A stretch of 64,000 nucleotides of DNA from positions 59,706,001-59,770,000 of the forward strand of contig NC_042998.1 of NCBI RefSeq assembly GCF_006345805.1, in the 5' to 3' direction. This DNA is from Octopus sinensis. Its lineage: Eukaryota. Below, one piece after another: positions 30,937 through 33,166 of this stretch. Made by a program: the position numbers. The stretch's first letter is position 1. Each line of letters opens with the position of its first letter.

Positions 30937-33104
30937 CGTGAGAGAGAGATGAGGTGACACTTGTGCGAGTGTGTTAATCTAACCGCACGCGTCCATGTGT
31001 ATGGGCACGCGAGTGTGTGAGTGTGTGTGAGTGTGTGTGCGCGTATATGAGGGTATGAGTGTGTATCTGTGTATGTACATATATATATGCGTATGAGTGT
31101 GTGTATGTGTGTATGTGCGTATGAGTGTGTGGATCTATAGGTGCGTGTATGTGTGTATGCGTGTGTGTGAGGACGTGTAAGTGGCCCTGAGTTTGCATGT
31201 GCATGTGTGTGTGTCAGGGCGTGTGTATATGTGTGTATATCATGTGTGCATGTAAGTAATTGCGTGTATATGCATGTGTGTATTCCATATATATAATTAA
31301 CCTTAATGTAATTCTGCGACTGAATTAGCGTGACACATGATGGATATAGCAAGAGTTTCAACTGAACATTTCTCAACTAATAAGAAAGTACACCATTCGC
31401 TGAATAAATTGTAGAAAATCGCAACAAAATTTAAATAAATATCAGATGAATAATTCTATTCACAGGGAGCTGTGGAGAGCTCTGGGGTACTGTGGGTCAC
31501 AGGCATCTTCATTCCTTGTTATTGATTGCATATTTGGTGTAAGACTAGGTTGGCTATTTAAATTAGTTGTACTTCATTTGGCAGGTTTCCACACAGTTTC
31601 TTTTTAACCAATTTTATTTCCAATGCTTTGGCCACATGACAGATTAACTATTAAGTCACTCACAGATGTGTGCCATCATCTGATGCCTAAATATTGTGTC
31701 CCCATTCTATACCATTTCTACTGTTACTGTATGTTTTCTGCTCCTTGCAGCTAGCTGAGCTTACCTCACCTCCTCTCAAACGTTTCCATCCATCCTACTT
31801 GCCTCTTCTCTTTTAATCATCTTTCTTATGTCCACCCCATCCCACTCCCACCTATAAGACCTCACATTTATCATTATGCTCAGTCTTTCCTTCCCAAGCG
31901 GCGTCCCTCAGGAAATCTCTCCCTGTTCATATCTTTCCCACAGATGTTGGTTTACGAAGGTTCACAAGAAACCTTAATGGCATTAATCATTATCATCACT
32001 AATCTAGATGGTCCGTGAAGGGCATGAGCACTGTCCTTTCAGACCCAACACGGGTAGAAGATAAAAGAAAAAGATCAAACCAAAACTAGACTAAAAGATT
32101 CTTGCTCAAGTTGTGATGGAATTGGATTGATCTCAACACTAACATGTCAGGATTATGATGTGAACTTATTAATCACCTGGGCATTTGCCCCTCCCCCACC
32201 CCTACCTGAGATGTAGAGGTAAAACCGTACATGTGGTGAGCAAGTAATGTAATTGTTAGGTTTGTGTCCAGCTAAGGTAGAAATAATAAACCTGTGGAAC
32301 TGAAGCAGCTGACACAATGAATCAGAATAGATATTTCCTAAATAATACAGAAGGAAAAAATTGAGGGCTGGGATGTGAAAGACAGAAATTTTAAGGAAAT
32401 TTTCCAACTCACTTTTCCTTTTCCGTAAGGTGTGGAACTTTGAAGGACTGTTGTTCAAAAAATTTTGCCCAGAATGGAATGTCAGACTAAATGGTTTGTT
32501 CTATTTAGTTATGTTCCTCTGCATTCTGAATTCAAATCCTACGAAAGTCAGTTTTACCTTTAAATCCAGCAGATATCAATAAAATAAATTACACTAGTCT
32601 AGCTTGCCAATAACAGCACATTTCTCCATCCATTTTTATTATATTCATTTTTCTATTGGAAAAGTGGATTATTACATGCACTCTTCTGCCCTTTGTTTTT
32701 ATACAAAGGCGCAGGAGTGGCTGTGTAGTAAGCAACTTTCTTACCAAACACATGGTTCCGGGTTCAGTCCCACTGCGTGGCATCTTAGGCGAATGTCTTC
32801 TACTATAGCCACAGGCCGACCTAAGCCTTGTGAGGGGATTTAGTAGACAGAAACTGAAAGAAGCCCATCGCATATATATATATATATAGATCAATAAATG
32901 GCGGGGTTGTGTTCACCGCACGTGGAGAAATGATAAGTAAGGAAAAATTTTTTTAAAAATGCAGAATGCTCAAATGAAATAAAATTTTAATAATATGAGA
33001 AATTGATAAAATATATAAATATATATTTATATATTTTATCAATTTCTCATTTTATTAAAATTTTCTTTCATTTGAGCATTCTGCATTTAAAAAAAATTTT
33101 TCCT

Positions 33105-33166
<62 letters not shown>

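What the first reader, a model, noticed from the sequence alone, without database searches (positions are those of the whole stretch)
32889..33108. Mini-hairpin element whose fold-back point coincides with its parent's ribozyme cleavage site (candidate cleave-and-snap-back mechanism)
Seen: this 220-bp insert has the same ~45-nt tail and terminal arm as the PLE at 10181-11460 but folds back with no spacer at the palindrome ATAAATAT|ATATTTAT. In the long copy that palindrome is at 10304-10319, and the hammerhead on the sense (minus) strand would cleave between 10322 and 10321, 2 nt away. Established: PLE pLTRs carry hammerheads and PLE insertions often have an inverted pLTR plus a short tail. 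Inference: reverse transcription of the 3' cleavage product ends at the cut, and the cDNA 3' end self-primes on the palindrome, giving a MITE-looking hairpin that is really a retro-product. This would be a genomic record of in vivo cleavage by a U3-A8 hammerhead.
Basis: partly seen in the sequence, partly recalled or inferred. Interest (0 to 1): 0.85.

Follow-up and report, generated by a model that had tools for sequence, protein, structure and literature searches.

The report
Mini inverted Penelope-like insertion in (TA)n
This is a very short head-to-head copy of a Penelope-like retroelement end inserted in a TA microsatellite, and its two arms meet in a palindrome next to a predicted ribozyme cut site, which simpler joining routes explain as well as ribozyme cleavage does.

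Summary
32889-33108 is a ~44-nt tail plus a spacerless fold-back centred at 33022|33023. It is a relative of the 1,280-bp fold-back at 10181-11460: same tail, same arm ends, both in (TA)n. The long copy carries a hammerhead-like U3-A8 motif on each arm, found by my own post hoc descriptor (2 hits; 0 of 200 shuffles had any). Rfam found no hammerhead in 3 searches. The predicted cut lies 2 nt from the edge of a 16-nt palindrome and 10 nt from its centre.

The cleave-and-snap-back reading is not supported over simpler ones:
- The palindrome is the longest in the arm, and it is a 16-nt direct repeat between the two arms. Any homology-guided join lands there.
- Joining inside the palindrome reproduces the mini's centre without gaps. 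Run-off cDNA self-primed from its paired 3' hairpin needs an 8-nt gap.
- The first two nucleotides of the predicted cleavage product are absent.
- The tail is on one side only and the tail-less arm ends at the same place in both copies. This fits two separate initiations of reverse transcription, not self-copying.
- There is one mini copy and one long copy. No eukaryotic collection could be searched.

Best reading: a Penelope-like head-to-head insertion joined at the palindrome. Later deletion is a close rival.

The parts
32872..32888 (.). Left flanking (TA)n tract of the mini copy
   Evidence: Perfect TA tract listed; sequence read.
32889..32933 (-). Tail of the mini copy (sense on the minus strand). 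It has no inverted partner. The boundary with the arm is uncertain by 2-3 nt.
   Evidence: 42 of 44 positions identical to 10181-10224; outside the inverted repeat.
32934..33022 (-). Left arm of the mini copy: the last ~88 nt of the element before the arm/tail boundary, sense on the minus strand
33015..33030 (.). 16-nt palindrome at the centre of symmetry (33022|33023)
   Evidence: Exact match; centre of the fold.
33023..33108 (+). Right arm of the mini copy, tail-less, running into (TA)n
33108..33239 (.). Right flanking compound microsatellite: (TA)42 at 33108-33191, then (TG)25 at 33191-33239
10181..10224 (-). Tail of the long relative
10225..10621 (-). Left arm of the long relative
   Evidence: 397 aligned columns, 98.2% to the right arm.
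10318..10357 (-). Hammerhead-like U3-A8 motif, left arm; predicted cut between 10322 and 10321
   Evidence: Own descriptor; no Rfam match.
10294..10321 (.). 28-nt quasi-palindrome (hairpin) that starts exactly at the predicted cut. It contains the 16-nt perfect palindrome 10304-10319.
   Evidence: RNA fold, DNA fold, exact match.
10622..11064 (.). Unique non-coding middle of the long relative
   Evidence: 6-14 stops in each of the six frames; longest open run 43 codons.
11065..11460 (+). Right arm of the long relative, tail-less, running into (TA)25
11328..11367 (+). Hammerhead-like U3-A8 motif, right arm; predicted cut between 11363 and 11364
   Evidence: Own descriptor; no Rfam match.
11366..11381 (.). 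16-nt palindrome, right-arm copy. It is a direct repeat of 10304-10319.

Best explanation
The 220-bp insert is a strongly 5'-truncated, head-to-head (inverted) insertion of a non-coding Penelope-like retroelement end into a (TA)n microsatellite.

Each arm starts at the target DNA, at one of the element's two start sites for reverse transcription. One start site lies about 44 nt further downstream in the RNA, which gives the one-sided tail. The two cDNAs are primed from the two strands of the cut target and have the same sequence. They can therefore pair only where that sequence is self-complementary. They paired in the 16-nt palindrome, anything beyond it was trimmed, and each cDNA was filled in on the other. 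The result is a spacerless fold-back centred on the palindrome.

The predicted hammerhead cut 2 nt beyond the palindrome may have shortened the templates. It is not needed for this product and has left no mark in it.

Shown: the anatomy, the shared tail and arm ends, the (TA)n target, the hammerhead-like motif in the long relative, and the fit of a palindrome join.

Inferred: Penelope-like ancestry (no reverse transcriptase or endonuclease gene is present), two-strand priming, and pairing of the two cDNAs.
For: Identity:
- An inverted 5'-truncated arrangement and a tail at one end only match the published description of Penelope-like insertions: an inverted 5'-truncated copy, and a 30-40 bp tail often at one end only (PMC8557442, passages).
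- Both copies are flanked on both sides by (TA)n. Perfect (TA)>=6 tracts cover 3.3% of the window.
- A hammerhead-like motif with a palindromic helix III (AAACCGGTTT) and a U3-A8 core is present on both arms of the long copy. That core variant is reported for these elements, as are paired motifs on opposite strands (PMC4209133).

Two initiations:
- The tail-less arm ends within about 3 nt of the same point in 2 of 2 independent copies. Their flanks are unrelated.
- A purified Penelope-like protein cleaves and extends both target strands and starts reverse transcription at two adjacent internal sites. The sequence between those sites is the tail (PMC11167929).
- The distance from predicted cut to first start site is 97 nt here. 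In that element the cut is at +26 and the starts at +111 to +118, i.e. 85-92 nt.
- The tail folds into a small stem with an A/C-rich loop. One of the two tail differences keeps a pair (U-A to U-G) and the other lies in the loop.

Palindrome join:
- The product built by joining inside the 16-nt palindrome aligns to the mini's centre without a gap, score 113 against 98 for the run-off self-priming product.
- The palindrome is the longest in the arm.
- The long copy's own inner junction (about 10619-10621) lies at no palindrome. Joins in this family can therefore fall elsewhere; the mini is the case where they met in the palindrome.
Against: - No reverse transcriptase or GIY-YIG gene belongs to either copy. 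The only reverse transcriptase in the window (43827-44642) shares no DNA with them. Penelope-like ancestry rests on structure alone.
- Rfam does not recognise the hammerhead in any of 3 searches.
- Pairing of two cDNAs at a palindrome has not been shown for any Penelope-like element. My searches found no paper on it.
- The same final sequence arises by later deletion between the two arm copies of the palindrome, or by copying a pre-existing mini element. The two copies in the window cannot tell these apart.
- The palindrome lying 2 nt from the predicted cut, and a 28-nt hairpin starting exactly at it, are coincidences this reading leaves unexplained.
Confidence: 0.42

Rival explanations
1. Post-insertion deletion. 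A long fold-back like 10181-11460 inserted at this site. The 16-nt palindrome is present in both arms, and because it is self-complementary the two copies are direct repeats. Slippage or break repair between them removed everything in between and left the spacerless mini.
For: - The palindrome occurs at 10304-10319 and 11366-11381 on the same strand. It is the longest direct repeat the two arms can share.
- The predicted deletion product is identical in structure to model B, which fits the mini gap-free.
- The one-sided tail and the arm ends are inherited unchanged.
- Long inverted repeats are known to provoke breaks and deletions (PMC7999016, passages).
Against: - The same review states that a long spacer stabilises inverted repeats in eukaryotes and that spacerless palindromes are the least stable. 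The step would go from a 443-nt spacer to none, yet the mini has survived long enough for its arms to diverge by about 5%.
- No long fold-back of the mini's own subfamily is in the window.
Confidence: 0.28
2. The hammerhead cleaves the transcript, reverse transcription of the 3' product runs to the cut, and the single cDNA folds back on the palindrome and primes its own second strand.
For: - The predicted cut lies 2 nt from the palindrome.
- The 3' product begins with a 28-nt hairpin, and its cDNA ends in the same hairpin with a paired 3' end.
- In vitro, a template starting at +20, just before the cut at +26, was the shortest 5' truncation still inserted (PMC11167929). A cleaved RNA would therefore be a competent template.
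Against: - Self-priming from the paired 3' end predicts a centre 8 nt shorter than the one observed.
- In the 16-nt register the cDNA has a 2-nt unpaired 3' overhang, and the mini lacks those 2 nt.
- Self-copying should duplicate the tail, which is on one side only. The tail-less end coincides with that of the long copy.
- For the one element studied, ribozyme mutants did not change insertion, and no RNA-seq reads began or ended at the cut (PMC11167929).
- Metazoan motifs of this kind cleave poorly in vitro (PMC4209133).
- There is only one mini copy.
Confidence: 0.1
3. Ribozyme cut plus two cDNAs. Two RNAs, possibly held together through the palindromic helix III, are both cleaved. Both are reverse transcribed from opposite target strands. 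The two run-off cDNAs pair through the terminal palindrome after loss of a 2-nt flap.
For: - It explains the one-sided tail, the equal arm lengths and the nearness of the cut together.
- Helix III is a 10-nt palindrome, the form proposed to act in dimers (PMC4209133).
- The protein of the studied element is predicted to be a dimer and extends both strands (PMC11167929).
Against: - Nothing in the sequence requires the cut.
- The 2-nt flap must be removed.
- There is only one mini copy.
Confidence: 0.15
4. DNA transposon: a Stowaway-like MITE or fold-back element with a TA target-site duplication. The mini would be a deletion derivative of the long copy.
For: Hairpin shape, small size, AT-rich sequence, and TA on both sides.
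Against: - The element's two extreme ends are not inverted repeats. A 44-nt tail, kept at 42 of 44 positions between copies, lies outside the repeat at one end only.
- A hammerhead-like motif lies in each long arm.
- No transposase is present.
- The TA duplication cannot be read inside (TA)n.
Confidence: 0.04

Closest known systems
Penelope-like element insertions with an inverted 5'-truncated copy and a one-sided tail (PMC8557442, passages; PMC11167929, main text)
   Same: Head-to-head 5'-truncated copies, a tail at one end only, an AT-rich/(TA)n target, and a hammerhead-type motif upstream of the start sites for reverse transcription at a similar distance (97 nt here, 85-92 nt in the studied element).
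   Different: There is no reverse transcriptase/endonuclease gene in either copy. The tail is 44 nt, against the 30-40 bp reported. The mini keeps only about 88 nt per arm, and its arms meet without spacer in a palindrome. I did not find that form described.
Minimal hammerhead motifs of Penelope-like elements, U3-A8 variant (PMC4209133, parts 1-2 of 4 read)
   Same: U3-A8 covariation in the core, G10.1-C11.1, a short helix I (5 bp), a palindromic helix III suited to dimers, and paired motifs on opposite strands.
   Different: Helix II has 4 bp rather than the 7-8 bp reported for the schistosome families. [quoted passage not shown] Cleavage is untested, and the Rfam models do not match.
Twin priming of LINE-1 (inverted, 5'-truncated insertions); recalled, no paper read here
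   Same: Both strands of the cut target prime cDNA synthesis, and the two cDNAs are joined by short homology to give an inversion.
   Different: In LINE-1 the second primer anneals inside the same RNA, so the two parts are different segments. Here both arms are the same segment, so pairing is possible only at a palindrome.
Stowaway-like MITEs
   Same: Size, hairpin fold, TA-rich target.
   Different: Asymmetric ends (one-sided tail), and relatives with hammerhead-like motifs. This is a resemblance of shape only.

Membership tests
Penelope-like element (PLE) insertion | ORF with a telomerase-like reverse transcriptase and a GIY-YIG endonuclease | tested here: not met
   The middle of the long copy has 6-14 stops in every frame. 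The window's only RVT_1 match (43827-44642) shares no DNA with the copies and has no GIY-YIG match in the 4 downstream ORF pieces scanned. The copies can be at most non-autonomous or truncated derivatives.
Penelope-like element (PLE) insertion | Inverted 5'-truncated copy adjacent to a direct copy | tested here: met
Penelope-like element (PLE) insertion | Tail of 30-40 bp, often present at one end only | tested here: met
   A 44-nt tail at the left end only in 2 of 2 copies, 42 of 44 positions identical. It is slightly longer than the published range.
Penelope-like element (PLE) insertion | Hammerhead motif in the pLTR | tested here: inconclusive
   My own descriptor gave 2 hits in the window and none in 200 shuffles. 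Rfam gave no hammerhead match in 3 searches.
Penelope-like element (PLE) insertion | Microsatellite / AT-rich target | tested here: met
   (TA)n on both sides of 2 of 2 copies.
Hammerhead ribozyme, type I, PLE minimal form | Core boxes with a C3-G8 (or covarying U3-A8) pair, and G12 A13 A14 | tested here: met
   U3-A8 version. The covariation is reported in PMC4209133.
Hammerhead ribozyme, type I, PLE minimal form | G10.1-C11.1 pair closing helix II | tested here: met
   helix II of 4 bp with a 5-nt loop.
Hammerhead ribozyme, type I, PLE minimal form | [quoted passage not shown] | tested here: not met
   The hit has bulge = 0.
Hammerhead ribozyme, type I, PLE minimal form | Palindromic helix III / loop 3 | tested here: met
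   10-nt palindrome ending at the cut.
Hammerhead ribozyme, type I, PLE minimal form | Self-cleavage | not testable with these tools
   The minimum-energy fold of 11320-11400 forms helix II but prefers the downstream hairpin to helix I.
MITE (terminal-inverted-repeat DNA transposon derivative) | Inverted repeats at both extreme termini | tested here: not met
   The left terminus is the unpaired tail.
MITE (terminal-inverted-repeat DNA transposon derivative) | Target-site duplication | tested here: inconclusive
   It cannot be read inside (TA)n.

The most novel reading that the evidence does not exclude
The element places a palindrome/hairpin exactly at the 5' end of its hammerhead 3' cleavage product. 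Two cleaved RNAs are reverse transcribed from the two strands of the cut (TA)n target, and the run-off cDNAs pair through that terminal palindrome. The mini copy would then be the full-length product of a cleaved template. That would make it a genomic footprint of in vivo cleavage by a U3-A8 hammerhead and would give the ribozyme a role in forming the inverted structures of Penelope-like elements.
Probability: 0.15. Interest if true: 0.7.

Novelty: new member of a known kind. Interest (0 to 1): 0.3.

Why it matters
How Penelope-like elements produce their inverted and tandem insertions is still described as undefined (PMC8557442, passage). Whether their hammerheads cleave in vivo is also open. 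PMC11167929 found no reads at the cut and no effect of ribozyme mutants in vitro.

A class of insertions whose ends are set by the cut would bear on both questions. This single copy does not do that, because its centre is where any palindrome-guided join would fall.

It does suggest a sharp genome-wide test: do the 5' ends of plain truncated copies pile up at the predicted cut? It also yields a sequence-level observation worth following. The longest palindrome of the arm abuts the cut, and a 28-nt hairpin starts exactly at it.

Tried and rejected
- Rfam: no hammerhead family matched at gathering score over the whole window, nor at E<=10 on 10100-11560 or 11305-11400. The weak matches listed were microRNA or snoRNA models on TA/TG repeats and AT-rich sequence.
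- More copies within the window: BLAST of both copies against the window found only themselves and each other, plus short AT-repeat matches.
- More copies elsewhere: two exact-pattern scans of genome contigs (prokaryotic genomes only), one with a tail/arm motif and one with an arm motif, each gave 0 loci.
I counted stops by script instead.
- An autonomous parent in the window: 21 of the 58 listed ORFs of at least 110 aa (those I judged longest or non-overlapping) were scanned in Pfam. One had RVT_1 and none had GIY-YIG. A second scan covered 9 ORF pieces around that reverse transcriptase: it gave RVT_1 again on the same ORF plus weak RVT_1 and CggR_N matches on one upstream piece, with no GIY-YIG. 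A PDB sequence search of the fragment gave only a weak group II intron reverse-transcriptase match, E = 0.003. It is unrelated to the finding.
- Helitron reading: rejected by eye. The ends do not fit the terminal signature as I recall it, and there is no 3' subterminal hairpin. This was not formally tested.
- Literature: no paper holds both 'Penelope-like' and 'snap-back'. A six-term search on foldback, self-priming, palindromes and MITEs listed nothing on this (titles and abstract starts seen). 'Penelope' with 'twin priming' gave 2 unrelated papers (listing only).
- Papers seen only in part: the 2026 preprint on animal retrozymes as abstract and outline; supplements of PMC8557442 and PMC4209133 (family lists and motif alignments) not opened. 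They might show whether this family is already catalogued.
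Full report
WHAT IS THERE

The insert at 32889-33108 lies between a short (TA) tract (32872-32888) and a (TA)42(TG)25 array (33108-33239). It has two parts. The first is a tail of about 44 nt with no inverted partner. 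The second is a spacerless inverted repeat centred at 33022|33023: 79-nt arms at 94% complementarity, extended by BLAST to 174 aligned columns at 95.4%. As single-stranded DNA it folds into one long hairpin of -80 kcal/mol, z = -21, with 0 of 200 shuffles as good.

Its only relative in the window is 10181-11460. That copy has the tail at 10181-10224, arms at 10225-10621 and 11065-11460 (397 aligned columns, 98.2%), and a 443-nt middle. The middle has 6-14 stop codons in every frame. It too sits in (TA)n, with (TG)29 upstream and (TA)25 downstream.

Perfect (TA)>=6 tracts cover 3.3% of the window. Two of two copies flanked by (TA)n on both sides therefore indicates target choice. The wider flanks of the two copies are unrelated, so they are independent insertions.

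RELATION BETWEEN THE TWO COPIES

The tails agree at 42 of 44 positions. Across the 90 aligned arm columns, 72 are the same in all four arms. In 12 columns both mini arms agree with each other and differ from both long arms. The long copy is therefore a relative from another subfamily, not the literal parent.

In sense orientation the tail-less arm ends within about 3 nt of the same point in both copies and then runs into (TA)n.

THE HAMMERHEAD

Rfam gives no hammerhead match at gathering score or at E<=10 on small stretches.

A descriptor of my own finds exactly two hits in the 64-kb window, one on each arm of the long copy. The cut falls after 11363 (+) and after 10322 (-). None of 200 dinucleotide-preserving shuffles gave a hit. 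The descriptor asked for a core with C3-G8 or U3-A8, G10.1-C11.1, helix II of at least 4 bp, GAA, a palindromic helix III, H17 not G, and helix I of at least 4 bp. It was written after seeing the motif, so the shuffle count is an upper estimate of significance.

The motif has the U3-A8 covariation and a 10-nt palindromic helix III. Cervera and De la Pena report both features for Penelope-like elements. They also report pairs of motifs on opposite strands, and low cleavage in vitro, seen only in dimeric or trimeric constructs or with an elongated helix III (PMC4209133, parts 1-2 of 4 read).

The 16-nt palindrome is at 10304-10319, 11366-11381 and 33015-33030, with 3 matches and none in 100 shuffles. 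The predicted cut is 2 nt from its edge and 10 nt from its centre.

WHY PENELOPE-LIKE

No reverse transcriptase or endonuclease gene belongs to either copy, so membership by the defining gene is not met. The structural hallmarks are met:
- an inverted 5'-truncated copy;
- a tail at one end only;
- a microsatellite target;
- a hammerhead-type motif (PMC8557442, passages).

Frangieh et al. (PMC11167929, main text read) showed for a purified element of this class that the protein cleaves and extends both target strands. Reverse transcription starts at two adjacent internal sites in an A/C-rich stem-loop, and the sequence between those sites is the tail. The hammerhead cut there lies at +26 and the start sites at +111 to +118.

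Here the cut-to-first-start distance is 97 nt. The tail contains a small stem with an A/C-rich loop. Of the two tail differences between the copies, one keeps a pair (U-A to U-G) and one lies in the loop. That agrees with the fold but is thin evidence.

TESTING THE CLEAVE-AND-SNAP-BACK MODEL

First, the palindrome is the longest in the arm: 16 nt, against three of 10 nt. Because it is self-complementary, its two arm copies are also direct repeats. Any homology-guided event would centre the product there whether or not the RNA was cut. Such events include pairing of two identical cDNAs, template switching and later deletion.

Second, I folded the cDNA of the predicted 3' product (10181-10321, + strand). 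Its last 28 nt form a hairpin whose 3' end is fully paired, and the RNA shows the same hairpin starting exactly at the cut. This is the natural self-priming end, but its centre is 4 nt away from the mini's centre. I built two model products from the long copy by coordinates and aligned them to the mini:
- Run-off to the cut plus self-priming from the paired end needs an 8-nt gap at the centre (score 98).
- A join inside the 16-nt palindrome is gap-free (score 113).
In the palindrome register a run-off cDNA would end in a 2-nt unpaired overhang. The mini does not contain the first two nucleotides of the predicted product, so the cut has left no mark.

Third, a cDNA that copies itself back should reproduce the tail at the far end. 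The tail is at one end only, and the tail-less end coincides with that of the independent long copy. That is what two separate initiations predict.

Fourth, for the one element studied, ribozyme mutants did not change insertion in vitro, and no RNA-seq reads began or ended at the cut. In favour of feasibility, a template starting at +20, just before the cut, was the shortest 5' truncation still inserted.

Fifth, there is one mini copy. A random fold-back point would come this close to the cut in roughly 5% of cases over a 397-nt arm (my arithmetic, not a tool result), even before allowing for the palindrome's pull.

BEST EXPLANATION AND RIVALS

I read the mini as a head-to-head Penelope-like insertion. 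Two cDNAs, primed from the two strands of the cut (TA)n target at the two start sites, paired in the only place where identical strands can pair, which is the palindrome. They were then filled in on each other. Confidence is 0.42.

Later deletion between the two arm copies of the palindrome gives the same sequence (0.28). It is somewhat weakened because a 443-nt spacer stabilises inverted repeats in eukaryotes, while a spacerless palindrome is the least stable form (PMC7999016, passages).

A version in which both RNAs were ribozyme-cut and the run-off cDNAs paired after losing 2 nt remains possible (0.15). It is the most interesting reading. Copying of a pre-existing mini element only moves the origin one step back.

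The long copy's own inner junction (about 10619-10621) lies at no palindrome. Joins in this family therefore need not be palindrome-guided.

WHAT STAYED UNCHECKED

The decisive census of fold-back points and of 5' ends of plain copies needs the source genome or another eukaryotic collection. 

Cleavage activity cannot be tested with these tools. I did not open the supplements of PMC8557442 or PMC4209133, which might list this family. The 2026 preprint on animal retrozymes was seen as abstract and outline only. The comparison with LINE-1 twin priming is recalled and was not read here.

VERDICT

The element is a new, very short member of a known kind of insertion. The proposed mechanism is not supported over simpler ones, and the copy is not a record of cleavage as it stands. 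Interest is 0.3. The cut-plus-two-cDNA reading would deserve about 0.7 if a census bore it out.

Noticed in passing
window 10294-10321 and 11364-11391: The first 28 nt of the predicted 3' cleavage product form a hairpin that starts exactly at the predicted cut. In the minimum-energy fold of 11320-11400 it wins over helix I of the hammerhead. It could act as a switch between the ribozyme fold and another fold, or it could be chance in AT-rich sequence.
   Followed up: partly
window 10181-10224 vs 32889-32932: The tail is better conserved between the two copies (42 of 44 positions) than the arms (72 of 90 columns the same in all four arms). That would fit a role as the start site for reverse transcription or as a protein-binding site.
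   Followed up: partly
window 41710-44645 (+): A run of frameshifted ORFs from a decayed retroelement. RVT_1 matches at E=1.6e-16 in 43827-44642 and weakly in 43495-43842. No GIY-YIG was found in the 4 downstream ORF pieces scanned. The only PDB sequence match is a weak one to a group II intron reverse transcriptase. There is no DNA similarity to the Penelope-like copies. Its class is unresolved.
   Followed up: partly
window 32700-32870 and 36663-36821 (-): A SINE-like repeat abuts the mini copy's left (TA) tract. A second copy at 88% identity lies 3.8 kb away. ARAGORN calls no tRNA in the window.
   Followed up: partly
whole window: The window is very rich in TA microsatellites: 82 perfect (TA)>=6 tracts covering 3.3% of it. 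Both Penelope-like copies sit in compound (TG)n/(TA)n arrays.
   Followed up: partly
window 23765-25345 (+) and 19783-21081 (-): Open frames of 526 and 432 codons with no Pfam family at E<=0.01. I did not examine them further; they may be repeat-derived.
   Followed up: no
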